Positions 674 to 64,000 of a DNA stretch of 64,000 nucleotides are shown here, piece by piece; the first letter of the stretch is position 1, and each line of letters starts with the position of its first letter. The notes beneath the pieces are model-generated. The model was not told the DNA's origin, searched no databases, and worked only from the letters and a program-made list of their open reading frames with translations. The position numbers and the translations under genes are program-made. This DNA comes from Hormiphora californensis (Eukaryota; Animalia; Ctenophora): NCBI GenBank assembly GCA_020137815.1, contig CM035362.1:1984001-2048000 (forward strand). The letters are read 5' to 3'.

Positions 674-18618
<17,945 letters not shown>

Positions 18619-33600: not shown

Positions 33601-36600
33601 ATTCTCATTTCAAAACTAGTTTTCCTCACTTCACTTCGTGTAAATTGTGTCTTGTGATGCAGCAACGCCCCGGGCCACCTCAGTAAGGGGATCTTTCAGG
33701 CCCCAAAGATCCCCTCACTCAGACCCTCTTCTTCACCCCATTTAGAGAATACTAGTCCAACCCAACCCCCCTAAGGCCTCATCCCTTACATCCCATCTAA
33801 ACTCACGCTAGCTTGAAGATAGTAGCGGGGGATTCCGTTGTAGTTGGTCGAAGATAGAACATCATCTGTTCCTCATAGCTTGCTTCAAGATCATATGTGA
33901 TGTTCGAGGTACCAGTACCAGTTGTGAATTTAACTGTCCCACGACCGTTGAATGAGATACTAGATCCTGAGGGAAAGCTGGGTTAAAAAAATGGGATTGG
34001 AAATACAATTATTGGGGTTGGGTGGTTGGCAATCGTGAAAGGAGGGAGAGAGAAGGAAGGATGGAGAGAGAAGGAAAGAGGGAGAGAGAATAAAAGAGTA
34101 GACCTTGGGAAACATTTATCCGCCAGTGGCTTGTTTATTTAAAGATTTTAGGCCACATAAGAACTGGGAAAGTTTCTGTTTTTGACCACAAATTGTGAAA
34201 TCTCGTGGGAAGAAAAGGAAACACCAGCCTCTAAAACCATTCTAAAAAGTTTCCCGCTCATTTCAATCTTCTCACATCGATAACTTCCTATATACATGTG
34301 AATAAATCCCCCTCTTTCTCTCCATTCTAATTCTCTACATATCTCTCTCTCTCTCTCTCTTCTCTCTATGTGATACATAAATCTAAACTACACAGAACTT
34401 GCCAGTCTCTGTAGTTTTGTGTGTAAACCTGTCTAGATAGCATTATATACTGTCTAGGTTGTATTCAATAACACGCATGACAGGTGAGCTCTGAGAAACA
34501 AAATACAGTCAGACCCATTTACCCCTTTTTCCCCAAACCCCTTCCCAGAAAACCCTTCCCCGGGGCCCGTTCGGGTTTTCCCATTAAGTTTTTTGTCCAA
34601 AAATTAAAAAAATTGTTGGTTTGATATTAACACCCTATTTGGTATATTTTTATAGATCCGGGGAAAAATTTATTTGATAAAAAAAAAGGGGGGGGAAAAA
34701 TCCCTTTTGGGGGGGAAAAAATTTGGGGGGGGGGGGGTTTTTTGTGGGGCAATAAATAGGGGGTTTTTTTATGGAAAAAAAAGGGGGGGGGGGGAAAAAA
34801 TTTTTTTGCCAAAAACGATGGATTGGAGTGTGTTTTTTCCCTTACTCAGTACGCAGGGTTCCCTTACCCCCAAAAAAAGGGAAAAGAGGATGAAAAAGGG
34901 GGGGGGGAGTGGTTTTTAAAACTTACGGGGCTTTCCCCCCAAACCCCTTCCAAATTTCCCCCTCCTCTTTTATTTCCCCCCTCTTCCTTCTCGTCCCTCT
35001 TCCTTTTCCCCTTTTCCCCTTTTTCCCTTTTTCCTTCTCTCACGGCCCCCTCCATCCCCTTTTTTCCTTCCCCTCTTCCCTCCCTCCTAACCTTCCCCCT
35101 TAAACTTCCCAACCCGGGCCCCTTTTTTCATTAAACTCATTCTTTTTCATTTTTCCGGGCTTCCTTTTTTTCTTTTCTTCTTTTTTTTTCCTCTAATCCT
35201 CTAAACTATCCTGGATTTGGAAAATTTTTAAAAAATCCCGGGAAACCTTCCCCTTTTTCATCCCTTTTAAAACCAAACCCCCCTCCCCCCTTTTTCCAAA
35301 AAATTTTTTTTTGGGGCCCCCCCTCTCTCCTTTATTTCGGCCTCGCTCCTCTCCCTTTCCTCTCGTTTTTTTCCTTTTTAATCCTTTTTTTTCAATCTTC
35401 TTTCCCTCCTTTTATTTCTCTCTTTTTTAATTTCCCTCTTTTCCCCCCCCTCCTTTTTTCCCCCAACCCCGCTCCCGCCTTACACCGGCACCCGGCCAAA
35501 CCCATTTCCCTCTTGTACTCTTTTCCTCCTCCTCCTCCCTTTTTCCCTTTTCCTCTTTGGCTTCACCTTAAATTTTCCCCAAATTTTCCCCCCAAATTTC
35601 CTTTTTTTTTGTTCTGAACCTCTCCCCTTTTCTTGTTTTTTTTTAAAACCCTTTTCCCTTTTCATTCTCCTTTCTTCTTCCCCCTCTTTTCGCTCCCCCC
35701 CCCTTCCCCCCCCTTCTTCCCTTTTTTCAGTTTCTTCAACCTCCCTCCTCACCTTTTATTTCTTTCTTTTTCCGTCCTCTTCTTCCCCTTTCCCTCCTTC
35801 CTTACTCTCCTTTCTTCACCTTTTTTTTTGTTTTGTTAAATTTTTCCCTTTTTCTCCCCCGTTTGTCACCCAAATACCCAACCAATTAAAAAGGTTTTTC
35901 CCCAAAATCCCTTTTTGGGTTTTCCCCCCAAAAAAAAACCCCTTTTTTAAATTTTTTTCCCTTTCTTTAAGGGGTTTGGGCCCCCCAATTTTTTTTTTTT
36001 TCCCCCTTTATACTAAAATTTAATTTTAAACCCCCCTTCATAAAAATTTTTGATTTCCCCCTTTTTGCTTTCCGGGTTTTTTTTGGGGGTTTGGTTTTTT
36101 CCCCCCTTTTTTTTCCAAAAATTTTTATTTTTCCCCCCCTTCTTTTTTTTTTTCCTAAAGCCCCCCCCCTTTTCCCCCTTTCTTTCCCCTCCCCCTTTTT
36201 CCTTTCTTTTTCTCTTTCCCCTTTCCCCCTTTCCCCCTTCCCCCCCTTTTTGTTTTTTCCCCCCCCGGGCCCCCTTGGGGTTAAAAAAAGGGGAAAAAAG
36301 GGCCCGGGGGGGGGGGAAAACGGGGGTTTTTTTCATATTATGATAGTATGTTTAAATTTTTGGGTGGGTTTTAAAAAGGGAAAATGAAAATAGGAAGAAG
36401 AAAAAGGTTTTTTTTTTTTTTTTTTTTTTAAAAAACCCTCCCCCCCCTTTTCGCTGCAAAATATAATACAGGGGGGCACTAAATAAAATCCCCTCCTTTT
36501 TTTTTTTTCCCCCCTTCTCTCGCTTTTTCCCTTTTTTTCCCCTCCAAGTGACATCACCAAGTGAACAAACAACAAATTCCCCGGGCCCCCTTTTTCCCTT

Positions 36601-39259
36601 TTTAAGAGATAGCACTTTGAAAAGAACTCTTTTCGCACATAATAACCCGGAAAATATTTTTATTGGCTGGAATACTTTAGCCACAAATGCTCTGCGAAAC
36701 GATCTCTTGATTCAACTCTCCATGTAACTCCATTTTCTTATTTTCCTGGTTTTTCAGTTTTTTTCCCATTTTATCTTTTTTCGGTATGACAGGAGCAGGG
36801 TTCCAACTCCACAATTATGGTACTAATTGTCTCAAGTCATTAGCCCCCTTATTGTTTCTTCATCCCTCTCTACCATTTCCTAGCCCGGTTCGTGAGCCCG
36901 CGACTGGTCATGAGAAATCGTTACTAGAAGGTCCTATTAGCGGTCTGCGGTTAGAATCTAAGAGAGATAGTGAAGAAGGAGAGAGAGAGAGAGGATAGAG
37001 ATAGAGGAGAGATAGTATGAAGACTGAAGGTAGGTAAACGATAGTACTGAGTCTATTTCTGGGTTTTAAAAAGCCATATTCTTTACCAGATATAGATTAA
37101 CCTAAAGTGGAGAAGTTTCCCCCTTTTGGGAATTTTTGGCCACCTAAACGTCCTAATTTGTTTATTCCTGCTTTTCAATAAAAACCAAAAGACACCCTAA
37201 TACCTCCAGTCATTTTGAAGATAATTAAAAAGGACAAGAAAAAAATATGATGAGGGGGGGGGGGGCTGGGTATTTTGTGGGACAAGTAATAACTCAAGAA
37301 AATCAATAATATTTGGGGGTAATAAACACACATACCTTTGCACTGTGGAACATCACAATACTGGGCAGGCTCCTCTGCATTATCGACACTACACCAGGGT
37401 CTGTCATACTGGTCAGGGTTTGGGTTCCGGCAGTAGTTCTCCGCTAGTCGGTACCGGTCAAAACTGGAAAAGAGGTTTTAATGCAAAATAGATAGGATTG
37501 GAGATAGATTTAGGGTTCACAGGATGGGGGTTTAGACAGGTCATACGGTTGTAGAGCTGGATTTTAATTTATCGGCTCATTTTGGACTTAGGAATTGTAG
37601 TTGGTTCGATAGGAACTGGAAGGGGGGTTGGTCAAAAGGGGCTCATTAAATCTCGGGAATCTCTCAATCAGGAGAGACAAAATCAAGAGAGAGTAATCAC
37701 ACCCTTTCTTTCGCACACACCACACGGACACATTCTCACTCGCATTCACTCTTATCAGGGATTATGATAATCATGGCCTGGCCCACGTGTCACAAAAAAA
37801 AGATAGGAAAAAGATAGGTCTGACACACGCACACAGGGAGAAAAAGATAGATCTCAAACAAACATTACCCAATCATTGAATACTGCTCAACGTATGCTCT
37901 GAGAGTGGGTTATATATGTATGTCGTGTGGGGGGAGAATATTTTATCAGAAAGTTATAACTTGGCAACTAAGAAAATATTAAACATACCAATGCATGATT
38001 CGGACTACCCTGAAATTCTCGAGCAATACAATGATTCTCACCTGTAGATGGATTTATCCCAGGCAATACAAGACTCGCCCTTTTCTGTTACACTGACGCT
38101 GCCTTGATAGTCGAAAACCGTACCCTCGGTCAATATAACAATCGGTAGCTAGTGAGGGGAAATATGTGTTAGTTAGAAATATAATGTTGATTTCAAGACT
38201 CCCAAAAACCGGAATGTTTTCATTCCTCTTACTTCAAAAAATAAATTGTCAGGTGAGTCAAAATAATTATTGATATGTTGAGCGGGTGTGAGCTGAATTT
38301 TGATGAGAGTCAGTCATTTTGAACGTTATTATAGCAGCGGTCTTCTGTCAAATCAAGCTGATTGATTGTCTCAGTCTCTCTTTTTTTCTCTCTCTCTCTC
38401 TCTCTCTCAATTTCTAATAACCTTAGTAAGGAGGCGTTGAAAAGCAGCTGAGATAGAAAGAGCTCAGAGATAGAGAGGAAGGAAGAGAGTGAGATATAGA
38501 GGCCATCAGAGAGTAGCTCAAATAGAGTACTGACAGGGTACTTGAGTAGGTGTGAGCGTGTGCTCTAATCCAGGAAACTTCCCCTAAACCAAGTTTAAAG
38601 GGCATCTTTGACAGAAATAAAAATACCGCCAAGAACGGAGCCCCAATACCGCCAAGACATGATACACGGAAGAAGTGTGACCCCTTGCAACAGCCATCTC
38701 TCTCTGTGTGTTTCAAATGCCACCATCCAGCTCTCGGGCCCGGAAAAGTGAGGGGATGTTTATGTGAAATGTGTGGGAGGCAGGGAGAGAGATAGAGGAA
38801 GGAAGGGAGAGATGGAGAGAGGAGGGGAGAGAGAAGGGCCATGGGCATGTATTTTTCAGAAACTGACACACCCAAAGATGGGAGTAACATCTAGTAAAAA
38901 CATTGCATGAGAGATGAGATGGAGACATAGCGAGAGAAGAGAAAGAGGGAGAGAAATCGGTAAATAAGAGGGAGGGAGAGGGAGAAAGAGAGAGAGAAAG
39001 ATAGAGAAGATGAATCATGGTAATCGAATACCATGTGTTTAGCGTGTAGTGATACATGTCAAGAGGAGGCCAATATATAACGCCAGTAACATTTAATGTC
39101 AAACTAATATCACTTTGGATTGGAACATTTCGGGATGTTTGATTTTGGTTTGGCGATGTTTCAAGGTGAAAGGAGTCTCCACTTTTCTAACCCCCCTCTC
39201 TTCTCCGTGGTCAATCACAAAATAACTCACCCGTTTAGAAGGAGAAAGGGGTGAGTGAA

Positions 39260-39343
<84 letters not shown>

Positions 39344-42300
39344 TGAGAAGATGGTTTAAACACAAGCCTCCCCAGTACATGGTATATTAAACAAACTGCA
39401 GACAACAATAATCACGTGACCTAAACCCTGGATGCTGATTGGCCGAGAGTCCCCATTCTCTCCCCTGATTGGCTTCTCTCAGTGGTCACGTGATCTGCTA
39501 TCATGTGATCAATGTTGACGGCAATGAATTGTAAAGCGCACAGGGGCCACCAAAAGTTTCTATTGCTAGATCACTGTTTAGAACAAAAGCTGAATTTAAA
39601 AACTTGGGGCCTTGAGAAGAGAATATTCTTTTGTTTAAGTGCTTGGATAATTACACTCTAGCTAGCTTCTAAAACGCTTCGATAACTCTCACTATATCTC
39701 TATTTCTTTCATGTTATATTGACAGGCACTAAGAAGACACTACAAAGACTTTTTGCCCCCCCCCCCTTTCCATACATTGGTAGGAGTCCCCGACATAGCA
39801 GGTTCTTGCGCTCTGAAAGAAATGAGAATAGGGCCAGGCCAATGCTCTGACAGCGACATAGGGCGCTGTCCGAAAGTGCATGACAGTTTATTATTGATTA
39901 TAGCCAGGCTGATTTCTTTAATTCTTGCATGCATAGATCATGATCAAAAACATTTTACTGTTTTTAGAATCACCCAAGGAATTTAAATTAGCGGGAGAGA
40001 CAGAAAATTGGCGGGAGAGACAAAAAGAGAAGTTGATTGAAAGAGAGATCGTCTGTGAAGGTGGAAATAGATCAACCCCCCACCCCGCCACCAATGTTTA
40101 TCCAAGACTGCTTGACCCTTGTCCTTAAGCAATTACTAAACATCTTCTGAGCCCTCCAGCCTTACATTATATCGTGTCAATCATGTACACACTTATCACG
40201 TGACTTACCGCCAAGGGCCCAATTAGCAGCCAATTAGACGGAATCAGTCACTCATGAGTGTACGGGACGAGGAAGAGAAGATGAAAGAAAGTGACAAGAC
40301 ACACATCTGCTGTGAGAGAGAGAAAGGAGAGAGGGGGAAAAATGAGAGGAGAGGAGAACGGGGGGGAGAGAGAGAAGAGAGAGAGAGATTGTTTTGTGTG
40401 TGTGAGAGGAAAAGAGAGAAGAGGAGGTGGGGGAGAGAGGGAGAGAGAGAGAGAAAAGGGGGAGAGAGAGGAGAAAAGAGAGAGAGAGAGGAAAAAAGAG
40501 AGGGGGGGAAAAAGGGAGACCAGAAAAAGAGGGGGGTTTTGGTGTGTTTATTTATGGTCTGGGAAAAATGCAAAAATTTTTATGTTTGAAACAAAAATTT
40601 GGCCCCGGAAAGGGGTTAAAAGGAAAACCAAAAAACCAATGAATATTCAAACGTTTAACAGAAAAAAAGAATTAAAAATATTTGGGTTTTCATAATGTTT
40701 TCAGACCTGTTTTTGTCTACACTTTCAGAGAAAAGGAAAAGGAATGAAAAGCCCGGAAAATAAAATGTTTGGTTGAAAAAAAATTTTCCATAAAACATTA
40801 GGTTAAAAAAAGAAAAAGAACTTCAAAAACGGGCCCCCCCCCTTTTAAACCAGAACTTCGGGAGCCCCAAGAGTGTGGAGACCCGCCCCCCGAGAAAAAG
40901 GGTTCCCCAAAACCTAGGGGCCCGCATAAGGAGGGAGGAGGGAAGAAGGAGAGAGAGAGAAAGAGGAGAGAGAGAGAGGAGAGAGGGGGAAAAGGAGGAA
41001 GGAAGGAGAGGCGGAATCCCCGCCAAGCAGACCACAGGGGCGGGGAATTTCGGTCGGGCGGGGGAGTTGTCATGCATTCTGACACCGTTTTACCATTTTA
41101 CTGCCCACTGATCCACAACCTCAACCTCTCTATCCTATTCCTTTCTCTCTCTTTGCCGCAAAGTATGTGAATAACACAACGATAACAGTTTTGGGCAACA
41201 CGGCTGAGCTTAGTAAGCAAACTGTTTACACCCAGTTTATTCTACGGATTGTCAAGTAAAATCTGATCGGAATAAAAAACACCGATATGGGCATTTTTTT
41301 AACTGTGCAAAAAATTTTTCCGAAAATGACATTTAAATTCAGTTTTTTTCGACTTTTATCATAGTTTTTTTCAAAAAAAAAATTTCCAAGAAATTATGGT
41401 AAAAATGTAAGGGAATAGATTTAAAAGGGAAAAAAAATTAAAAAAAAAAGGAGGTGCCCGGTGACCTTTTGCAAAAGGTGTGCCCCTTCCGTAAATTTTT
41501 AAATTTTTTTTAAAATTTTCGAAATATGCAAAAATGCCAAAATTTAAAAAACCCTTTTAAAATATGTAAACAAATACTAATCTATGGGTGAACCCGGGGT
41601 TTTAAAATTTTACTTTTACAGCTCTTTTAGCCCGGAGCACCTCAGTTTCACGACTTTTTCCTAGTAGATACTTTTAGTAGACTCAAAACCATCATTTGTA
41701 CCAAAAAAGTTCCAAAAATTTTGCTCAATGAGTGAGGTGCACCCAAAAAACTGTATTTTCTTTCAAACGCTAATTGCACCTCACTCAGTGAGTATATAGT
41801 TCTAAAAGTGGCCTTAATTTGCTCATATGACATCCCCAAACACTACCTAATCGATTCCAAGGTCATTGCTCAACCTGTGAGGTGCACTGGAGAAGTAGGT
41901 AAATATGTCATTTTTTGAGGGTCTGCACCTCACTCGCTGAGTAATTTTTAGGGCAAATTTTAGGTAAATCAGGAGGGAAATTGTCTAATCTTGCTTTATG
42001 CCAAGTTTCAATTCTTTATTTACTCATTGACCCCTAGTGAGTAAACTTTTAGCTCTAAAATCGGCTTGCACCTCACCAAATGAGTAAATTTTTCCATGGT
42101 TTTTCACCTCATCTGATGAGTGAGAAATATCCCCACCATTTCTGAAAGTTTGGAGATTTTTGATCAAACGGTATTTCTACAAATCGGGGGCACCTCACGA
42201 TAGCACCTCACGGCGTAGAAATGCTATAGCACCTCACTGGAGTAAGCTAGAGACTTCGTTCTTTCACTAAATTGAACTTTTAATATTTCTCGATTTTTTG

Positions 42301-43846: not shown

Positions 43847-46800
43847 CCTCTCTCTCTCTCTCTGTTTTTTTTCTTTACCCGGGATAAAATGAGAGCTCAT
43901 GTTTATTTTTGTTTGTCGTCCGCCAGGGGGATTGGATTGAGTCTTTGGATCTAAACCTCTCGTCTGAGTCTTTTAAACCCTCCCTTTCTCGCCCTTTTCC
44001 CCCCCTACTTCTTGCACGAACCTACCTCTCTCTCTTTTATGGATGTCAATGTTTCAGCTCTGCCAAAACAGGCCAATGCCCGGGCTTTTCCAAGATGTGT
44101 GTATACACCGCCCAAGACTCTCCCTCTCTCCGCAAGCTCTCATCCATTCCCATTTCTTATGCCGAGTGTCCAGAATAGAGAAGCATAGAAGAAAGGAGGG
44201 GAAAAGAGGAGGAGGAAGAAGAGAGAGAGGAGAGAGAAACGAGAGAGAGAGAAAGAAGAGAGAGAGAGAGAGAGAACGAAGAGGATGGACGGGGGAAGAG
44301 AGAAAGAGAGAGAGAAAAGAGAAGTGTGGAAGGGGGAAGAGAGAGAGAAGGGGAGAGGAGGAGAGAAGAGAGAGGCGAGAGAAGAGATGGAAGAGAGAGG
44401 AAGAAAGAGAGAAAGAAGGGACAGGAAACGTTAGCGCATTACTCGGCATGAGCGGTAGCAAACACCCGAGCAAGAAGTACGCTACAATACACACACACAA
44501 TGGTGATAGAAATGGAATGTATATACCCCCATTCCCACCCTTAACAATTCTAATACATCAGCTAGTATTATATTGTTCTTTACCAGATATATACTGATGA
44601 ACAATAGATCAGGGACAAGAGAATGGGGAACAAGCATTATGTACTTTTGTGAATGAAATTCCACCCGGACCTTCTTTAGTCAGTAAACGATCGATCGTTC
44701 AATGTTTTAAGAAGGTCTCGATCTGATAGAGACGAGCTAAATCAAAGAAAGCGCCAATTTGAGCTAATAGGACATACTAATATGAACAATTATGTAGGCT
44801 AAATCATGCTCTCCACCGATACTAACATATTTTCGCTTTTTTGGCGGGCCTTTATTTACAAGGGGGGAGGACCAGATGTACATAATTGACTACCATTAGA
44901 ACATGGTTTATATCTGAGTGCTGTGTTTGGAGGATGACCTGCTCAATTTAGCATGGTTTACATCTCAAAACGCACTTAGTGGAATTTCCCTACCAGAAGA
45001 AGCACCTTCCATTACCACTTTTATACGCTACAAAATTTGTCGTTTTAAGCTGTCACACGATGGAGAGAGAGGGAGAGAGAAAGAGAGAGGGGGGGAGGGA
45101 GAGACAGAGAGAGAGGGGGAGAGAGGAAGAGAGAGGGCGAGAGAGAAAGAGAGAGAGGGCGAGAGAGAATTTCAGTTATACCACATTTGGAATATACACT
45201 AGGTTCAAATCGCTCAAGGTAGCTAGTACAGAGAGAGTAAAATCTTTCTCATAACCTTTTGGTGTGTTCTGCAGTGGGGGACACAGCGTGGAAGAGAGGG
45301 AGAGATAGGGAAATAGAGAGAGGGAGAAAGAGAGAGAAAGATAGAGATGAAGGGAAAGAGAGAAAGAAAGATAGAGAAAGATCGAGAGATAGAGAGCGAG
45401 AGAGTATACAGCTCTTACTCGAGTAAGAGCTGCTAGAGGTCGGAGTGTGGCACTTCCCTCACCAGGTTCTACTCGGACACCAACTCGAGGCTGCTGCTCC
45501 CCACTTCCCACTCAGAAATGATGTGCACACTCTCACACTTAATATCTTCATAGATGCAGTATTACGTGACCACAAAGTGATGTGAAAATATAAAACAGAT
45601 CTATGAGTCCTTGTTTCACAAGACTGTTACATACATTATGATCTTATGTGTGTCCGTCAAGTTTTGTCAAGTTTTGTCAAAGCTTTAGAAGAGCAAAAGA
45701 TAGAAGTCGGTGGTCCCTAGTAAATTTCCATTCGTGATGATTTATGGAAAATAATAATGCCCCCTGTAAAAAACCAACAGATCTATTAAAAAATACTCAC
45801 GAGCATATGAACACGTTTCCACGACTTCCGTGGCTCGACAGCGTTTAAAGAAAACATCGAATGTGTCTGTATCAGCACAATTTTGTGAGGTTGCTTTCTT
45901 GTTCATGCATGAGTAGTACTTTCTACAGCTCATTGGGTCAGCCTCCTTTGACTGACGGTCACTTTCACACTGGAAACCTGTTGGGAAACAAGGCTATAAA
46001 ACTAGGATTGGAAACCTGTTGGGAAACAACGCTATAAAACTAGGATTGGAAAGCTAGTAGAGTCGATAACTACATCGACCTCTCCCAATTGTTCCAGTTT
46101 TTGTCACATCTGTTTGGAGCCTCGACACGACCTCTAAACAGCTGTTACTTTTTCACAAACTGTTTTCATCTTGGTGTAATCAGCAGTTGAAATGTTGCTG
46201 ATCATAACAAAAACCTGACTAAATTTTTTCAACTTGGGGTAAAACCATGGGTGTCAAAAGTTAGCTCTAGGTCCCCTGAGTAACCATCCGGAGACTCTAA
46301 GAGATATTTCAAGCCGTTCTCCCGTAATCATTAATCCCGGTGGAGAAAAAAATACAATGCGGACGTACGTGAGCGCTGGCAGGCTGCTTACATGTTATTG
46401 TATGTCTCTCACTCTCTCTGGAAAAACCGCACGTGCGGTTGCGCCGCGCGAGATAACTCTTTCTCAAGGGGGAGAAAAGAGAGAGACGCACATTAACGTT
46501 ATACATTAAAGTTGAGGTTGTAGGCAATTGCACGTACGTCCATACTCAAATATGTGCTCTACCGGGATTAATGATTACAGGAGAACGGCTTGAAATATCT
46601 CTTGGAGTCTCCGGATGGTTACTCAGGGGACCTAGAGCTAACTTTTGACACCCATGGTTTTACCCCAAGTTGAAAAAATTTAGTCAGGTTTTTGTTATGA
46701 TCAACAACATTTCAACTGCTGATTACACCAAGATGAAAACAGTTTGTGAAAAAGTAACACCTGTTTAGAGGTCGTGTCGAGGCTCCAAACTGATGTGACA

Positions 46801-47618: not shown

Positions 47619-48575
47619 CTATCCCACTTGGATAACGTTATTACGGATGAAATAGCAGCCGTCAGGATCTTCTGATCGTATCCGCTTCAAAGTGGACCTT
47701 AGAGCTTTTTGCTCTTTCAGTTCAGAGGGCGTAAGATCCGGAGAGAGATAAACAGCCGAAAACTGTTCGGAGTCTTTAAGGTTTCGTGCCTTTCTGAGGA
47801 GCGCGAGGAGAGTCGCTCTCTTCTCCAGGGATACTAAGAGCGGTCTAGGGCGCTTCTCATTTCTTTCGCCGATGCGTTTCATCGTAGTCACTTTCGGTTT
47901 CTCTTTTAATTCCTCAAAAAGTTCGTCTAAAGTAGTTTTAGCTACTCTATCGGTTGTTTCTGGGAGACCAAACACAACCATGTTCTTCTCTCTTCCGGGC
48001 TGTTGGACGGGAGTAGAATGATTCACTGGTAGTGGTTTTCCCACTTTGGGGGAGGTTGCAGCACAATTCTGTGCTAGCACAGTAGAGTAGGCTTTCACCT
48101 TCTGCACCGATGCTGTCACTGTACTGAGCTGTTGCTTCTGGTGGTTGATAACCGTTTGCTGAAGCTCGATCACGCTAACCCGATGGCGGTCAAGTTCTTC
48201 TTTACATTCACGCAGCTGTTTCTCGAGGTTTTCCGCACTGATAACCGTTTCAAAATTGTTCATTGTTGCTCGGGCAAGTTTCATACTGGAGAGAAAAATA
48301 CGCGAAGTAGCCTCGATTATTTCACTCGTAGTTCGCTCCGTGAGACAATGTCTAAAGTACGAACCCCAATGCTTGCTAGGCGAAGCTAAGCTGTCGTTGG
48401 TTAACATTGAATCGGGTGCAGCTTGAATCGATCTATAACATTGAGTAAACTCATCTGGTGTGATGCTCGTCGTGTTGTCCGAATTCAACAGGTAAACTTC
48501 AGAAACAAAGTCATCCACTGTCTCTTCTAATCGTTTTATCACAGGGTTATCGCCCTCGTACTTCGCTTCCGACAT
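47619..48575 (-). CDS. LINE ORF1p-like protein, 318 aa from the first ATG, in an ORF1-only retroposon
   Basis: Coiled coil (LEKQLRECKEELDRHRVSVIELQQ), REKNMVVFGLPE...KRIG...RPRPLLVSL...VYLSPDLT; homologous to the 15043 ORF. Followed by a vestige reading SCLYTNCVSAGYKL and an (ATT)n tail at about 47472-47490. Confidence 0.8.
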   Translation of the reverse strand: MSEAKYEGDNPVIKRLEETVDDFVSEVYLLNSDNTTSITPDEFTQCYRSIQAAPDSMLTNDSLASPSKHWGSYFRHCLTERTTSEIIEATSRIFLSSMKLARATMNNFETVISAENLEKQLRECKEELDRHRVSVIELQQTVINHQKQQLSTVTASVQKVKAYSTVLAQNCAATSPKVGKPLPVNHSTPVQQPGREKNMVVFGLPETTDRVAKTTLDELFEELKEKPKVTTMKRIGERNEKRPRPLLVSLEKRATLLALLRKARNLKDSEQFSAVYLSPDLTPSELKEQKALRSTLKRIRSEDPDGCYFIRNNVIQVG

Positions 48576-50519
48576 TATCAACGTTTCGTTTTTCTGCCCT
48601 TCGGGGCTGTTACATCGGATTCATCTTCCTGCTCAAATTAATTTGTTTAAAGTAGTGTTGAAAAGTTTGCTCGTATCAGTTCATTCTTTAATCTCTTTCA
48701 GAGAACTGAGCAACGAGGGACCCGGGGTACCGGTTCAAATAGAATATATGTCAGTACAATATTATTTACATGAATAATTATTAACAAAACTGGTGCCAAA
48801 CACAGGCAGTCAGTGACCGTGAGCTACGACAATTGACAAAATTTAAAAATCGGTTGCAAAGATTCTAGTATCTGTCGGCGCAGATTGAACGTACTGAGTC
48901 GGAAGTTTGGCCTACGCTGTTATAGTCCCACCGGACCTGCAAAGTGCAACGAGAAGAGTCAAGAGAGCTAAAAGTTTAAAAGAAGTAAAAATTCAAATTA
49001 CAAAATTCAAAACTCTGGTCGCGTCACCAAGATCATTTTGCGCGGCGCTATTTTACAACAACGCGCGGCTTCAAAAAAGCAGCGTTTAAACAAAAACTTC
49101 GCCGCCGTATTATTTAAAAGCCGCGCGTCGACTGTCCGCATCCTTTTTATTTTGTTTGTTTTTTGTTTGTTTAATTTTTTGTTGTTTTTTTGTTGGTTTT
49201 TGTTATTTTTTGGTGTTTTCCTTGAAAAGCGCTGCCTTATCCCTATCGGGGGCCAGCAACGTTTGCCAAGTGTTTTCCTTGACTTTTGGTCCTCGACCTG
49301 TGTGGCGTCGTGGTACTCACAGGGTCCTCCATTTTCTAAAAAGCGCAAGGACGTTCAGACGTAATTGTAACGTGCTTGAGACGGGTTTCCGTCTGATCTC
49401 AGAGGTTCCGTCCGATTTCGTCCAATACAACTCCAGCTCCGTTTGATTTCGTCCAACTCCGTCCGATTTCATCCAACTCCGTCTAACTCCTGTCAGGCCA
49501 TTGCTCTGACCACATGCACAGTTCTCACGCGCTCCGAGAATGGGTCAGGCCAATGCTCTGACAGTCTAACTCCGTCTAAACGGGTAGAGACCGTTTCAGA
49601 AGTTTTTAAGCGGCACGTCTCAATCCCGTTTGACTCCGTCTAGACACAAAACCTTGACATGTTCCTTGTCTGTCAGCTCTCACACCGGGCCGAAGGCCCG
49701 GTGTGAGCTTACGCGAGGTGCTTAACGTGCCGAACAGACAGACTGCGTAGTATGGCGAGCAAAACCCGTCTAGACGAGCCCCGTCTAGACGTCGTTGGAA
49801 CCGCGTCTAGACGACGTCTGTAGCAAATGAATATTTGCTCTTGGACGGGAGGAGGGTAAAACTATTCTGTAAGATATTGAGACCCTGGGTCAAGACGGTT
49901 CATAGATATCCTACTATCAGCAAATAGCGATTTGCGGGAGACGTAGTATAGACGTAGCAGCGACGTGTTATAGACGTATTATAGACGTATTACCGACAGA
50001 CGTATTATCGACCCTGTATATACCCTGTATATATATATTGCTGAAGGTGTGAGGGTCGAGTGAAACACGGTTACCCCACGCTTACTGCGCAATACCCCTA
50101 TAATACCCTTCAGTGAGCGTGGATCTAGCATGCGACTGAGTGTACGCTCATCGCGGGACCCTATCAATAGTTTTCTGGTAGGGATGTGGTAGAAATCCTT
50201 CACCTACCTCCTCCACTGCGAAAGTGACACATTTCTTTCTGCTGGGAACTTTCCGTGGTACGCTCGCGTCTAACCAAGGGTTGTTGTGGGACAGATCTCT
50301 CCCAAACGCCTTGGAGTATATCACGCTCAGGTCTACATGTGAGATCGGTGTCAGACCTGTTTCCTTCCTTGGACACAGTGGTCTACGCTTAGGGAATGTT
50401 AACTGTAGGTACACATTCCCCTTTTCTCGAGTGGGACCCTCCATTTCCACCGGTGAATCAGGAATGCATCGGTTGTGAAGCTGTACTTAGCATTACCTAT
50501 TACTAAAACTCGTGGAGTT

Positions 50520-51104: not shown

Positions 51105-51220
51105 GGAGTTAGAATCCTATTTCCCTGTTACCACCACCGGCTCTCCTTTGAGAAGGCACCGCATAACAAAATAATGAACACTTTGATACAAAACACAAAC
51201 TATTAGATTACTAACATATT

Positions 51221-52683
51221 TTATTTAATTTTTCTATATATATATTTTTTTAAAAAAAGTGTCATATTCTTTTTAGTCTTAGCACGGTCTGGGCCGCCCC
51301 CACCACCCTGTACTCCAGGGGCGGGGCCGGCCGCTTTCTCAAATACATCCCCAGCGAGGGGTACTGTTGCACCCCCACTGGGGATATGTCGGGTTGAGGG
51401 GTCGGAGGAGTCACCGACCGAGCGCCGGCCCGTCGCATTGACAGGTGGGGTGAGCCGGGTCGTAGGTCGGAGACAGGTGGCTCGTGTCCCAGGTTTTCGT
51501 CGGGGTCTCCCTCGCCGCCTCCTCCTTCCCGCTTCCCCCCTTTTTCTCCCCCAATTATATCTGACTGAACAGCCCCTCGGTACCTGCTGCCAATTCCAGC
51601 CTTTTTTCCAGGTCGTGGGTCCTCCTTTTATATTCCTCCTCCCTTGTAACAAAGCCATTTCGTTCCGTCACCAACGACAGTACGGTCATCCGTATTTCCT
51701 CCAACTGTAGGTCTTTTTGTTCGATAATCCCTAGCAGTTCCTCCTCTCTGGTTCGTCCTTCCTCTTCCCCCTCCAGCCTCTCCCCCGTCGCATTGACAGG
51801 TGGGGTGAGCCGGGTCGTAGGTCGGAGACAGGTGGCTCGTGTCCCAGGTTTTCGTCGGGGTCTCCCTCGCCGCCTCCTCCTTCCCGCTTCCCCCTTTTTC
51901 TCCCCCCAATTATATCTGACTGAACAGCCCTTCAGTACCTGCTGCCAATTCCAGCCTTTTTTCCAGGTCGTGGATCCTCCTTTTATATTCCTCCTCCCTT
52001 GTAACAAAGCCATTTCGTTCCGTCACCAACGACAGTACGGTCATCCGTATTTCCTCCAACTGTAGGTCTTTTTGTTCGATAATCCCTAGCAGTTCCTCCT
52101 CTCTGGTTCGTCCTTCCTCTTCCCCCTCCAGCCTCTCCCCCGTCGCATTGACAGGTGGGGTGAGCCGGGTCGTAGGTCGGAGACAGGTGGCTCGTGTCCC
52201 AGGTTTTCGTCGGGGTCTCCCTCGCCGCCTCCTTCCCGCTTCCCTCCTTTTTCCCCCCCCCCCCAATTATATCTGACTGAACAGCCCCTCGGTACCTGCT
52301 GCCAATTCCAGCCTTTTTTCCAGGTCGTGGATCCTCCTTTTATATTCCTCCTCCCTTGTAACAAAGCCATTTCGTTCCGTCACCAACGACAATACGGTCA
52401 TCCGTATTTCCTCCAACTGTAGGTCTTTTTGTTTGATAATCCCTAGCAGTTCCTCCTCTCTGGTTCGTCCTTCCTCTTCCCCCTCCTGCCTCTCCCTCTT
52501 CGTTTCCCTTTCTATTATCTCCCTCCTCTGCTTCAGGTATTCTCTATTCGTTTCTGCCCGTCCCTTTCCTGCGGAGCTGATCCTTCGCCACAAGCCCTGC
52601 TCCCCCAGTCTAGCTCATAAGTTGCTATACTTCTTCCTCTTGTCCTTCAGGGTTGCCTTGCGGGAGCTGTCGTTAGAAGCCAT
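51221..52683 (-). pseudogene. Decayed coiled-coil ORF of unknown, probably mobile-element, origin, partly triplicated
   Basis: One frame from the ATG at about 52683 reads MASNDSSRKATLKDKRKKYSNL*ARLGEQGLWRRISS...EEELLGIIKQKDLQLEEIRMTVLSLVTERNGFVTREEEYKRRIHDLEKRLELAAGTEGLFSQI*, with in-frame TGA and TAA. The heptad segment is repeated in each 355-bp unit. Confidence 0.4.
51430..52497. repeat. Three tandem copies of a 355-bp unit
   Basis: cgtcgcattgacaggtgggg starts at 51431, 51786 and 52141; the copies are nearly identical. Confidence 0.95.
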
Positions 52684-59744: not shown

Positions 59745-61542
59745 ATGCCCGTCCTCATCTCCCTCCTCCTCCTCCTCCCTGTGGTAGCTAGCTCCTTCCC
59801 TGGTCGATGCTCTCACCCCTCGGGCACTATGCAGGGCGAGATAGAGCTAGACAACCAGTCAGGCAGTGACCCAATCACAAGGACTGTAATCAGTAGTAGC
59901 ATTGCCCTCCAAGAGACTCTTTGTTATCGGATTTTGAACGAGTATACCGACCACACGGGCCGGACCAAGACACGTGAGCTATTGTACACCTTGGATTATG
60001 ATAGTTTGAAGCACGTGTATAATTACAAGAACCAGTATAATTTCAAGATCCCCCAAACGAAGATTTCCTGTTGGTGTGACTGTCCGGGAGGTAGCAATCA
60101 GTGTGATTCTAATACTGACTCTTGTGGACTGTAAGTACAATTATGTGTTTGTTATACTTGTTAGGGTTAGGTGTATGTGGACTGTCTTTAAACATGAATC
60201 TACCATGACTTAGGTGCGGGCACTGTTCGGCCTTCTGGAGCTTCTAACATGAATCTTGTCTGTTCATTTGCCTGTCTGCCAGTCGCTCTGCTATGGAGAG
60301 GATAGTTTTCAGGGCTTTGTCATCTTGTTCTTTTGGAAACGTAGGGGCGCTCTGTTTTCTAGCTGGAAGTAGGGCTCAAACCGGAGATTGGAAATTAGCA
60401 GACAGTGCCCAACTACACACCTCTACCACTCTGTACTTCTCTCTCTACCACTCTGTACTTCTCTCTCTCTCTCTCTCTCTCTCTGCGCTTCAGGAAGCGG
60501 AGTCTTGTTAGCGCAACCCCACATCCAGCTACACACACGAGCAGTACTTACTTTTAACTAGGCCAATTGGAAGGGAGAAATAGTGAGCTTAATATAATAA
60601 CTAAGGAGAGAGATGAAGAGAGATTGTTAAATAAACTAAAGGGAGAGAGAGAGATAGGGGAGAAGGCAGTTAGTTATGGAGGTCTAAAAACGGCTCACGG
60701 ACAGTACTTGTACACAGCGCCGGCTCTCTCTACAAATTATTTCCCTCCGGCCCAGTTACACAGGTCCAAAATGTCCTAAAAAAGTAAAGTATTAAACACG
60801 TGTCCATCGTGAGGAATTAAAGGTCTCAATTGTTTTACAAGCTGTCTATATTGGGCGCCAAGGGAGGCAGGCAAAATTATGGACAATTGGTTAATAAGAA
60901 TATGTGTGAACTAGCCCCCGCCCCCCCCCCTAACTAACCCCCTAGCCCCCTATTCCCTAACCAACCCCCTAATTTCCCCTACCCCCTTGTACAGGTACAA
61001 TCACGGTAGTAACGGCTGTGTGAACTGGTATGCGGATGGGCAGACTCTGGATGGTTGTATCTGGGTTACTGGAGCTGGACAAACTTGCTGTAGCGTCAAC
61101 ATTGAGCCGTGAGTAACAACTGTCAAACCTCGGTTTACCGGAACTCTTGTGACAAGTAAAACAACCTTGTCACAACAGTTCAGCTCTCCGCATCCCCGGA
61201 TCGAGCATTCTACAGGACACCAACTTTTAAAACTAACAAGTTTACCGGAACTCAAATTTACCGGAAAAGTGAATATTGCTACCTTTACTATAGCAACCCA
61301 ATGTGCTACTACATAATTGGTATCTAGTATCTACCCCTTTCTTTCCTGGGTCTAGCACGGGAGCCTTTGCTAATTAATTTCCTGGCAGTTCTGAGGGGTT
61401 ATTTCGTAACTAAATGTGCTACCTTCTCCTATCCCTCAGATTTAACGCTTACACCTATAAAGCAGTGGAGATATCAAGTCCTATCACACGAGCACAACTC
61501 CGGCTAAATGTTTGGGATGTTTCTAGTACCCTTAGTAAACCG
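59745..61542 (+). CDS. EFF-1/AFF-1 family (fusexin, class II fold) cell-cell fusogen, first three exons (201 aa); gene continues beyond the window
   Basis: Exons 59745-60130, 60995-61108, 61440-61542 (GT-AG, phases 2, 2, 0). Signal peptide MPVLISLLLLLPVVASS, then IALQETLCY...LLYTLDYDSLKHVYNYKNQYNFKIPQTKISCWCDCPGGSNQC...CVNWYADGQTLDGC...TCCSVNIEPFNAYTYKAVEISSPITRA. This follows the recalled EFF-1/AFF-1 pattern (H..x..Y.F.IP....SC.C.C ... C..F...QT..GC ... CC.V...P....AV....P.T). Confidence 0.85.
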
Positions 61543-62313
61543 GTATGTTTCTTGTACTATTAGTAAATCTGTATGTTTCTACAATAATAAATGCAAATGT
61601 ATAGTACGATAATATGGTTGGGGTCTCTGGAGACTTAATTGATCGAATGTGTGATAGGGTCTGACTGTGGTCGGAAACCCCCTATTGTGTGATCAAGTGA
61701 GATGAGGTATTTTAGTTGAAGTTTTTATGTCCCGGATAGCCTGAATAATTAGTGCTGTCTTGAAATATCCCGGGTTATAGGAGCTAGGTGGTAAAATGTT
61801 TGGTTTTGGAGGTCGGTTTTTGTTGTTTTGTTTCCAGAAAAAAGTCTAAATTTTGCCATTTTTTGGGCAAAAACGCCAGTTTTTGGGTAAATTTTGGGGG
61901 TGTGTGTGTGGATAAATGCAAATGTATAGTACGATAAGATGGTTGGGGTCTCTGGAGACTTTGATTGACTAAATGGTCATTTTTGGCCAAATTTGGTCAA
62001 TTTTTTGTTTCCAGAAAAAAGTTTAAATTTTGCCATTTTTTGGGCAAAGAAAACTAGTTTTTGAGTAAATTTTGGGGGTTGTAGGGGTCTATTTAGGTTT
62101 TAACCACGAAAGGAAATTAAATAAGTGGTCCATTTTGGGGGTCCTTTTGGGTCTTGACCAATTTTTAGGCATATATGTAGTTACGTCAGAACCATTTATC
62201 TTGAACCCCCCCCCCCCCTGAGCGTGCAGCATTATTAAATTATAACGTTTTTGTGTTACAAAAACACAATTTTATAATTATGGCACAGAACACAATGAAT
62301 ATATTCCAATAAA

Positions 62314-64000
62314 TCACTCCAAAATACTGGTCCTTGTCTCTTTTTGGAACAAGAATGTCATTACAAACGCCACACTCGAAACCCCACCAATACCTCCAAT
62401 AAGGTACGGATAGTTGTCCAGACTCAGTAATAGTGCCGCTACCGCTGTTCCGATACTAAACAACCGACCTGTACTCAGCAGGTAGCCTTGTAACATTGCT
62501 CGTTGATCGGTGGGGTAGACCTCGTTGGAATAAAGTTTGAAAATTGTAAAGCTGCACGACTTCACAAACTTAAGCAGGACAATATTGATCACCAATTTGA
62601 TACTCCCTCCAATGCAGATGAGTAGCGCAAAAAGGAGCGCTGATAGTGCTCCAACAATCGTCCTGATCGACAGAATCCTTGATATATACAAATTCACAGC
62701 CAGCATTATCCCTGCACCGGCAATATCTCCTGTCATACCTAGGGCCAACATCGAGAGAGACTTGTCACTGTAGGTATGGCAGTTAGCGGTGTGGTTGGTA
62801 GACCCTAGCTCACTGTCACAATAGCCTTCATTATACATTCTAGGGCCACCAAACATCAGTAATGACCAAGTTAGGGACTGTGAGATGCTGACGAACATGA
62901 AAGCTAAGGTATGCCGTTGGAAGGTCGTATCCCTGTAGGGGAGTTGTAGAAGTGAGATCTGGGTGGGGTCACCGACGTTGTGGTTCACCAACTCTCCCTC
63001 CAGAGGAGCTGTCTTATTCAAACGCCATATGTTGGCTATATAGTACATAACTCCCTCCCGCGCGGGCATCTATTCAATAGACGCACTGCAGAGCAGTGCG
63101 TCTATTGAGCTGTAATGCACGGGTCCCGAAGGGACCCGTGCGTTACAGCCCTGTAAATCCCGAGCGTCAGCGAGGGGTTTACAGGTATATCTGCATGTAA
63201 GGGAGGGAGTTGTGTTCTATAGACCCCGCTGGCGGGCACCTAGAAGCAAAACAAGCACAAATTAGGTGGTTGACACCGAGAGAGCTCACACAAAACGGGT
63301 CAAACAGTTAGAAATGAAGCTACAGAGTGCCTCTCTACATTCCTACACACTCGTAACAATCGTTGTAACAGTTTCAAAGCGTGGAATGCAGAGAGAGATT
63401 ACAGTTAATTGTGGGTCATGAGCAACAGTTGCAACAGACTGGCGGGCGCCAAATCTAGACAGAGAGCGTTGTAGGTTGTACACACACTCCCTCTTGAGTT
63501 ACCAAGTCATTTTATCGTGTTTCCAGTGATTCTTTGTGATCTTTACACAAATCTGTCAGAGGGCGTGCGTCTATCGAGACACAAACTCACGGCAGTGCAC
63601 GGCCCAATAGACCAGTGCAAATTGTTTGAGCGCGCCGTGCGTCTATTTGAGCCGGCGGGGTCTATAGTAGTTTTAGCGGAGTCCAATCTGTCACATGCGA
63701 TATCATAAAAGGCTGATTCCCGTTGGGTCAGGGTAGCCAGGGCTCCGAGAAATCCGGGCACGGAGAGAATGACTAAGACGACCCTCCAGCCGGAAGATTC
63801 AAGGAGAGCTCTGGCGGTAAGGGCGGCAGTTAGCGCACCAATTCCGTAAGAAATGGACTGGGCAGTAAACACATAGGGTCGGGTCCAAACGGGCGAATAC
63901 TCAACTGAGTAAATAGTTGCTGCCGATGTTGCTATTTCTAAGAACAGTACTGTGATTCCACGGAATACCAGAAACTGAACAAAACTTGCTGCCATTATGT
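62314..64000 (-). pseudogene. SVOP/SV2-related MFS transporter, intronless in the visible part, 5' end outside the window, interrupted by an insertion; nested antisense in the fusogen intron
   Basis: ORFs 63995-63666 and 63039-62314 join as ...GWRVVLVILSVP...RESAFYDIACDRLDSAKTT-I-ANIWRLNK... once 626 bp are removed. MFS motifs YSVEYSP...R, YSNEVYPTDQRA and C-terminal KETR are present, as is a Cys-containing loop after TM7 as in SVOP. Confidence 0.78.
63041..63664. mobile_element. 624-bp non-autonomous element with split inverted repeats (internal complement of both ends), TA-flanked
   Basis: Left end tagtacataactccctccc, right end gccggcggggtcta. The internal segment at 63201-63233, gggagggagttgtgttcta-tagaccccgctggc, is the reverse complement of right end joined to left end. 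Three consecutive hairpins at 63076-63185. Confidence 0.85.

What the first reader, a model, noticed from the sequence alone, without database searches (positions are those of the whole stretch)
59745..61542. Intron-containing EFF-1/AFF-1-type cell-cell fusogen gene
Seen: three spliced exons give a signal peptide and a Cys-rich ectodomain with SCWCDCPG, QTLDGC and CCSVNIEP motifs in the order and spacing I recall for nematode EFF-1/AFF-1. Established: FF proteins are class II (fusexin) fusogens that are sufficient to fuse cells and mediate neurite fusion and repair in C. elegans. They are patchily distributed outside nematodes, with uncharacterised homologues reported in a few lineages including a ctenophore. 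Inference: spliceosomal introns and no adjacent gag/pol make it a host gene rather than a retroelement env. If the organism is a ctenophore, it is a natural candidate for building syncytial tissues such as the fused subepithelial nerve net or muscle, or for rapid wound fusion.
Basis: partly seen in the sequence, partly recalled or inferred. Interest (0 to 1): 0.85.

Follow-up and report, generated by a model that had tools for sequence, protein, structure and literature searches.

The report
Comb-jelly EFF-1/AFF-1 cell-fusion gene
This is the first third of a spliced comb-jelly gene of the EFF-1/AFF-1 family, whose product likely fuses cells; such relatives were already known in comb jellies but are untested, and this one has a tryptophan-bearing tip where worm EFF-1 is acidic, which makes it a testable candidate for building their fused nerve net.

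Summary
Observation confirmed. Three GT-AG exons (59745-60130, 60995-61108, 61440-61542) give 201 stop-free residues with the motifs stated. Exon 1 alone passes Pfam EFF-AFF (60.8 bits, cut-off 25). A gene model labelled Pleurobrachia bachei is identical over residues 17-201 and runs on past the window. An MFS transporter lies antisense, apparently inside intron 3. Full-length orthologues in Mnemiopsis and Bolinopsis (66%; the latter already named 'aff-1-like') have one transmembrane helix. The predicted Mnemiopsis fold (pLDDT 86) matches EFF-1 best (E 8.5e-31), ahead of viral Gc, HAP2 and retroelement env. It is a host gene, not an env. Ctenophore homologues are already mentioned in reviews, so this is a new member of a known family. 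Added here: Bolinopsis has three paralogues, and the domain-II tip loop has Trp and no acidic residue where EFF-1 has EDD (Trp in 0 of 29 nematode-clade loops). No transmembrane exon or transcript was seen for this species. A role in the syncytial nerve net has no direct evidence, and none of my searches found it proposed. The scan's index held no earlier ctenophore finding of this kind.

The parts
59745..60130 (+). Exon 1: ATG, likely signal peptide (about aa 1-16), start of domain I/II, CWCDC motif and bc loop
   Evidence: Pfam EFF-AFF 60.8 bits; donor GTAAG. Six single-ORF calls from unnamed contigs of relatives also stop at this place; five end in ...SCGK, one in ...TRGK, which suggests a shared phase-2 intron (inferred).
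60995..61108 (+). Exon 2: strands c and d of domain II with the cd (tip) loop
   Evidence: Pfam profile 73-113; 38 of 38 residues identical to P0001
61059..61085 (+). cd loop, aa 151-159, Trp152 at 61062-61064, no Asp or Glu; aligned to the acidic EDD tip of C. elegans EFF-1
   Evidence: phmmer alignment to 4OJD; loop survey; EDD motif in PMC4050280
61440..61542 (+). Exon 3, ending in a phase-0 donor (GTATG)
   Evidence: 34 of 34 residues identical to P0001, 71% to Mnemiopsis; a near-identical exon in unnamed record P0117
61543..64000 (+). Start of intron 3 (inferred). The remaining exons (rest of domains I and II, domain III, stem, TM, tail) lie beyond the window
   Evidence: No further EFF-AFF-like stretch in any frame of the window; P0001 aa 378-589 match the profile but not the window
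62314..63998 (-). MFS/sugar-transporter-family gene (open frames 63543-63998 and 62314-63069), antisense and apparently nested in intron 3
   Evidence: Sugar_tr E 3.4e-10, MFS_1 E 6e-10 and 3.2e-05; nesting inferred from P0001 continuing past it

Best explanation
This is the 5' third of an intron-containing ctenophore host gene of the EFF-1/AFF-1 family, whose product is predicted to have the class II (fusexin) fold, likely carries one transmembrane anchor as its orthologues do, and likely fuses the plasma membranes of neighbouring cells or cell processes. Shown: spliced frame, family match, 11 of 11 cysteines at conserved columns, one orthologue each in Mnemiopsis and Bolinopsis. Predicted (on the Mnemiopsis orthologue): domains I-III, stem, one TM helix, cytoplasmic tail. 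Inferred from EFF-1 and class II proteins: surface monomers would trimerise and fold domain III and the stem back into a hairpin that pulls two membranes together. Inferred from sequence only: the Gly-rich, Trp-bearing tip loop would dip into a bilayer, as viral, HAP2 and Fsx1 loops do, in place of the electrostatic contact proposed for EFF-1's acidic tip. Which tissue uses it is untested; nerve-net neurites, muscle, wound edges and gametes are all candidates.
For: Pfam EFF-AFF 60.8 bits for exon 1, 218 bits for P0001 and 240 bits over profile 1-466 of 467 for Mnemiopsis P0002. The only PDB sequence matches at E up to 10 are four EFF-1A chains (E 1.5e-26; profile E 1.7e-152). AlphaFold2 of P0002 with a 64-row alignment: pLDDT 85.9, pTM 0.74. 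Foldseek: EFF-1 4OJE E 8.5e-31, TM 0.82 by target, against La Crosse Gc 1.3e-16, HAP2 1.1e-15, Atlas env 1.1e-13. The tree joins P0001, P0002 and Bolinopsis P0166 at 100/100. P0002 has one C-terminal hydrophobic peak (19-residue windows starting at about 516-540; helix 521-559) and two annotated tail forms, as EFF-1A/B have (PMC4723337). Loop: interface score -1.04 against a minimum of 0.49 and median of 3.33 in 29 nematode-clade loops; Trp in 0 of 29 there and 9 of 30 in the other rows.
Against: No fusion assay of any ctenophore member was found. The model for this species (P0001) stops before the stem and TM, and has a wrong N-terminus and an insertion of about 38 residues, so a membrane anchor is not shown for this gene. 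The fold was predicted on the orthologue, not on this protein. Exposure of Trp152 was not measured. The loop counts are on related sequences, so they are not independent, and the scale values were recalled. Archaeal Fsx1 has an uncharged loop yet fuses only bilaterally (PMC9259645), so the loop does not imply one-sided action.
Confidence: 0.78

Rival explanations
1. It is a true family member, but in ctenophores it works mainly in self-fusion or scission of one cell's membrane (wound sealing, phagosome closure, endocytic scission), or in adhesion, and makes no syncytia.
For: EFF-1 and AFF-1 do auto-fusion in neurons (PMC12407032 passages); roles in scission and membrane repair are recalled, not from a call. 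The nerve-net paper leaves open whether neurons fuse or stay joined after division (PMC7617566). Three divergent paralogues (about 31% identical to this one over the compared part) allow a division of labour.
Against: Complete conservation of the cysteine frame and of all three predicted domains, with 60-66% identity between cydippid and lobate orthologues, fits a kept fusion machine, but does not separate cell-cell fusion from self-fusion.
Confidence: 0.12
2. In this species the gene is truncated, secreted or decaying: the coding part ends at or soon after exon 3, and the neighbouring MFS gene marks its end.
For: An MFS gene ends about 770 nt after exon 3 on the other strand. No later exon lies in the window. 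P0001 has no TM. Two of four EFF-1 isoforms lack a TM.
Against: Exon 3 ends in a GT donor. P0001 carries a further ~230 stop-free family residues about 60% identical to Mnemiopsis. Nested genes are common in this family of ctenophores (2357 in Hormiphora, PMC8527503), and the window seems to hold a second case.
Confidence: 0.08
3. It is the env gene of a Bel/Pao-type retroelement or an endogenised bunyavirus glycoprotein.
For: The fold is shared with phlebovirus Gc and Atlas env. ESM Atlas lists a nematode Phlebovirus-G2 cluster second (0.93 against 0.95 for EFF-AFF). A viral origin of the family has been suggested (PMC5332557).
Against: Spliceosomal introns, one apparently shared with lobate relatives. 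64 of 64 aligned homologues match EFF-AFF and none matches Phlebovirus_G2 or HAP2 at E 0.001. No RT, integrase or gag domain in 103 of the 190 window ORFs of 75 aa or more (87 low-complexity ones were dropped). Orthologues follow the species pattern. No relative in viral contigs.
Confidence: 0.02

Closest known systems
Bolinopsis microptera 'cell fusion protein aff-1-like' XP_063693454.1 and Mnemiopsis leidyi ACHWQZ_G018899 (KAL5246852-4)
   Same: Orthologues: 66% identical over the window's peptide, clade support 100/100, same tip loop type.
   Different: Full length with TM and tail on record. Automatic annotation only; no study of them was found.
C. elegans EFF-1 / AFF-1 (Pfam PF14884; PDB 4OJC, 4OJD, 4OJE, 4CYL)
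   Same: Pfam family, cysteine frame, predicted class II three-domain fold, type I topology and alternative tails in the orthologue.
   Different: About 19-20% structural-alignment identity. The tip loop is uncharged with Trp instead of acidic EDD. Not assignable to EFF or AFF: it lies outside the 100/100 nematode clade. Fusion activity untested.
HAP2/GCS1, archaeal Fsx1 and bunyaviral Gc / Atlas env (other fusexins)
   Same: Class II fold and a non-acidic tip loop.
   Different: No PF10699 or PF07245 match; 9-13% identity; much weaker fold scores than EFF-1; no polyprotein or mobile-element context.

Membership tests
EFF-1/AFF-1 (FF) fusogens | Pfam EFF-AFF PF14884 above the curated cut-off | tested here: met
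   60.8 bits for exon 1; 218 bits for P0001; cut-off 25
EFF-1/AFF-1 (FF) fusogens | Conserved ectodomain cysteine pattern | tested here: met
   All 11 Cys of the 201 aa map to columns that are Cys in 43 of 45 up to 57 of 57 non-gap rows
EFF-1/AFF-1 (FF) fusogens | N-terminal signal peptide | tested here: met
   Hydropathy 2.82 over aa 1-11, aligning with the orthologues' leaders; no dedicated predictor was run
EFF-1/AFF-1 (FF) fusogens | Class II three-domain fold closest to EFF-1 | tested here: met
   On the Mnemiopsis orthologue's predicted model: pLDDT 85.9; top three Foldseek hits are EFF-1
EFF-1/AFF-1 (FF) fusogens | Single C-terminal TM helix and cytoplasmic tail | tested here: inconclusive
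   Present in the Mnemiopsis and Bolinopsis orthologues; not in the window and missing from P0001
EFF-1/AFF-1 (FF) fusogens | Acidic domain II tip (a feature of C. elegans EFF-1; it varies among nematode-clade rows, so it is not family-wide) | tested here: not met
   Loop has Trp and no D/E
EFF-1/AFF-1 (FF) fusogens | Post-fusion homotrimer | not tested
   No complex job was sent; a pass would mainly reflect likeness to the solved EFF-1 trimer
EFF-1/AFF-1 (FF) fusogens | Sufficient to fuse cells, needed on both membranes | not testable with these tools
   Needs a heterologous content-mixing assay
Bel/Pao (Cer, Atlas) env or endogenous bunyaviral Gc | Intronless ORF beside gag/pol and LTRs; Phlebovirus_G2 match | tested here: not met
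   Three spliced exons; no retroelement domain in 103 ORFs scanned; no PF07245 hit; sequence beyond 64000 was not seen
HAP2/GCS1 | HAP2-GCS1 PF10699 motif and long cd loop | tested here: not met
   No PF10699 hit; loop is 9 residues against 40 in Chlamydomonas HAP2

The most novel reading that the evidence does not exclude
This orthogroup is the fusogen that joins neurites into the syncytial subepithelial nerve net of ctenophores, and it keeps a virus-like, membrane-inserting Trp fusion loop that nematode EFF-1 replaced with an acidic tip. The ctenophore nerve net would then be built by true cell fusion with the same family that sculpts worm neurons, and non-nematode FF proteins would bridge viral and somatic class II mechanisms.
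Probability: 0.15. Interest if true: 0.88.

Novelty: new member of a known kind. Interest (0 to 1): 0.5.

Why it matters
The paper that described the syncytial nerve net of Mnemiopsis ends by asking whether its neurons stay joined after division or reach out and fuse (PMC7617566). A conserved EFF-1/AFF-1 gene with a named Mnemiopsis locus, and two further paralogue groups, turns that into a direct test by expression mapping and knockout. I found no tested non-nematode FF protein in my searches, so an assay of this one would also show whether the family is a general animal fusogen, and whether the acidic tip and two-sided action of EFF-1 are nematode specialities. The bare presence of the family in ctenophores is not new.

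Tried and rejected
No whole genome is held, so the downstream exons could not be read. No RNA holder was listed. The one run offered held only three contigs under 90% alike; one crosses the exon 2/3 junction without an intron, but it is a relative's or paralogue's sequence, and the run's RNA status is a guess, so it says nothing on expression of this gene. Single-sequence AlphaFold gave pLDDT 39.7 and was discarded. The VIA-align second look never ran. Word-index searches returned only P0001 and P0002. No confirmed relative in viral contigs for P0002 or P0025 or in metagenome contigs for P0166. Many hits match P0001 aa 35-120, a repeat-derived false N-terminus, and were dropped: 100 of 161 held proteins matched P0002, and 64 went into alignment A2. 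The monophyly of the three ctenophore groups is not settled (85/86, with three unnamed rows inside). The Mann-Whitney p for loop scores (5e-7) is not used, because the rows are related. Supplements of PMC10876535: 4 files searched, 0 hits, one further PDF unreadable. The Mnemiopsis single-cell atlas paper is not held, and bioRxiv supplements are closed; expression tables there may bear on the tissue claim. No complex prediction was run.

Full report
Observation. The gene starts at an ATG at 59745. Exons 59745-60130, 60995-61108 and 61440-61542 have GT donors and pyrimidine-rich AG acceptors and join to 201 codons without a stop, with the three motifs at aa 108, 145 and 160 and 11 cysteines. 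Pfam EFF-AFF matches exon 1 at 60.8 bits (cut-off 25; profile 1-72) and the exon 2 frame at profile 73-113 (15.2 bits); exon 3 alone has no hit. A profile from 31 nematode-clade rows only gives the joined peptide 126.7 bits against at most 3.5 for shuffles (175 of 200 reported), and ranks the three exon frames first among 1985 six-frame stretches. This is far beyond chance.

Organism and orthologues. A search with exon 1 found two proteins among 480 candidates: P0001, identical over aa 17-201, whose accession is labelled Pleurobrachia bachei, and Mnemiopsis leidyi P0002 (590 aa, 66%). Bolinopsis microptera XP_063693454, named 'cell fusion protein aff-1-like', is also 66% identical. The three form a 100/100 clade in a 33-row tree (also 100 in a 64-row quick tree). 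Bolinopsis has two more family members, XP_063692208 and XP_063679431, about 31% identical to the window peptide and in separate 100-support clades. Near-full-length single-ORF calls on unnamed contigs suggest that these have few or no introns (inference). Named relatives elsewhere are from Owenia, Branchiostoma, Tachypleus and nematodes. Only 20 representatives were looked up; in the 32-row 'nematode clade' three rows are named and the rest are assigned by the tree.

The rest of the gene. No further family sequence lies in the window. An MFS/sugar-transporter gene occupies 62314-63998 on the minus strand. P0001 continues with about 230 family residues that are not in the window, and it includes 13 residues read from 62825 on the plus strand, antisense to the transporter. 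I infer that the model spans this scaffold, that the transporter is nested in intron 3, and that the true exon 4 lies beyond 64000. Nested genes are common in the related Hormiphora (PMC8527503, passages). P0001 is a poor model: its first 140 residues are partly repeat-derived and replace the signal peptide, it has an insertion of about 38 residues absent from both orthologues, and it stops before the stem and TM. The TM is therefore shown only for the orthologues. Mnemiopsis has two annotated cytoplasmic tails, as EFF-1A and B do (PMC4723337, passages).

Fold. The only PDB sequence matches are four EFF-1A chains. AlphaFold2 of P0002 with alignment A2 gave pLDDT 85.9 and pTM 0.74, a beta-rich ectodomain and a helix at 521-559. 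Foldseek ranks three EFF-1 structures first (E 8.5e-31 to 2.2e-29; TM 0.79-0.82 by target), then La Crosse Gc (1.3e-16), HAP2 (1.1e-15) and Atlas env (1.1e-13). The best viral predicted structure scores 4.8e-18 at 12% identity. The ESM Atlas puts an EFF-AFF cluster first (0.95), with phlebovirus-G2 clusters close behind (0.93, 0.92).

Not an env. All 64 rows of A2 match EFF-AFF and none matches Phlebovirus_G2 or HAP2. None of 103 scanned window ORFs (of 190 of 75 aa or more; 87 low-complexity ones dropped) has an RT, integrase or gag domain. Six single-ORF calls from relatives end where exon 1 ends, as a read-through of a phase-2 donor would, so intron 1 is probably shared between cydippid and lobate ctenophores. 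DNA beyond the window was not seen.

The tip loop. In viral class II proteins the cd loop is the hydrophobic fusion loop; in EFF-1 it is acidic, with an EDD motif (PMC4050280, PMC8784728, PMC12236693, PMC5350521; passages). In the alignment to 4OJD the EDD falls on the window's IWVTG. The nine-residue loop has Trp152 and no Asp or Glu, and both orthologues keep this. On the Wimley-White interface scale (values recalled) it scores -1.04. The 29 nematode-clade loops (31 rows, 2 without the loop) score 0.49 or more, median 3.33, with Trp in 0 and any aromatic in 4. The 30 other loops (33 rows, 3 without) have median 1.15, Trp in 9 and an aromatic in 22. The trait is thus shared with several non-nematode members and is not special to this gene, and the other two ctenophore groups lack the Trp. 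Against over-reading: rows are related, many nematode loops are not acidic, exposure was not computed, and Fsx1 has an uncharged, required loop yet acts bilaterally (PMC9259645, passages).

Mechanism. Most likely (0.78) this is a cell-surface class II fusogen that trimerises and folds into a hairpin to merge two plasma membranes, with the Trp loop gripping a bilayer. Family and fold are shown or predicted; the anchor in this species, the activity, the loop's role and the tissue are inferred. Rivals are a self-fusion, scission or adhesion role (0.12), a truncated or secreted product (0.08) and an env (0.02).

What is known. Reviews state that EFF-1 relatives occur in arthropods, ctenophores, chordates and protists (PMC6504885, passage; PMC4723337); the primary 2011 paper was not seen (recalled). 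The nerve-net paper cites EFF-1 only in its reference list and leaves fusion versus incomplete division open (PMC7617566, passages). In PMC10730927 and PMC9816575 the terms occur only in references. The 12 of 15 passages shown from PMC12407032 do not tie EFF-1 to ctenophores. Searches for EFF-AFF with Mnemiopsis, Pleurobrachia with AFF-1, and EFF-AFF alone gave 0 papers; (listings) gave no study of a ctenophore member. The library lacks most subscription papers, so absence is not proven. The scan's index returned two unrelated fusexin findings and nothing for ctenophores, this place or this sequence.

Verdict. Real, and correctly identified, but a new member of a known family whose orthologue is already auto-annotated. 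Its value is as a concrete handle on an open question and as a non-nematode member with a different tip. Interest 0.5; the nerve-net fusogen reading has probability about 0.15 and would deserve about 0.88.

Noticed in passing
window 1177-1509 (+), 17492-17737 (+), 5402-7284 (-): A PBD hit and a protein kinase hit on the plus strand suggest a PAK-type gene; between them, antisense, lie a GT4 glycosyltransferase frame and a second 251-aa frame with an N-terminal hydrophobic stretch. Probably another nested gene.
   Followed up: partly
window 30685-30909, 37178-37477, 45745-45993 (all -): Syndecan-type C-terminal, kringle and chitin-binding peritrophin-A domain hits on the minus strand; possibly exons of one or more surface proteins.
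   Followed up: no
window 15016-15999 (+) and 47619-48620 (-): Two related-looking ORFs of about 330 aa without a Pfam hit that resemble LINE ORF1 proteins (resemblance recalled); no reverse transcriptase was found next to them.
   Followed up: partly
window 61587-62082: Two short direct duplications (50 nt at 61587/61912, 98%; 80 nt at 61826/62003, 80%) in the presumed intron 3, between exon 3 and the MFS gene.
   Followed up: no
window about 34700-36700 and 40200-41200: Homopolymer-rich stretches that look like low-quality draft sequence.
   Followed up: no
proteins P0025, P0026, P0035, P0068, P0076 and P0019, P0021, P0023: Two well-supported clades of EFF-AFF proteins; the members looked up are unnamed, mostly single ORFs on metagenome contigs, some of 0.3-1.1 Mb. 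Four of five in the first clade have a Trp tip loop much like the ctenophore one. Hosts unknown; P0025 had no relative in viral contigs.
   Followed up: partly
proteins P0162, P0176 (Bolinopsis) and relatives: Two further ctenophore EFF-AFF groups; one has a cytoplasmic tail of several hundred low-complexity residues (820 aa in Bolinopsis).
   Followed up: partly
window 51207-52614: Tandemly repeated unit of several hundred bases with repeated open frames and no Pfam hit at E 0.001.
   Followed up: no
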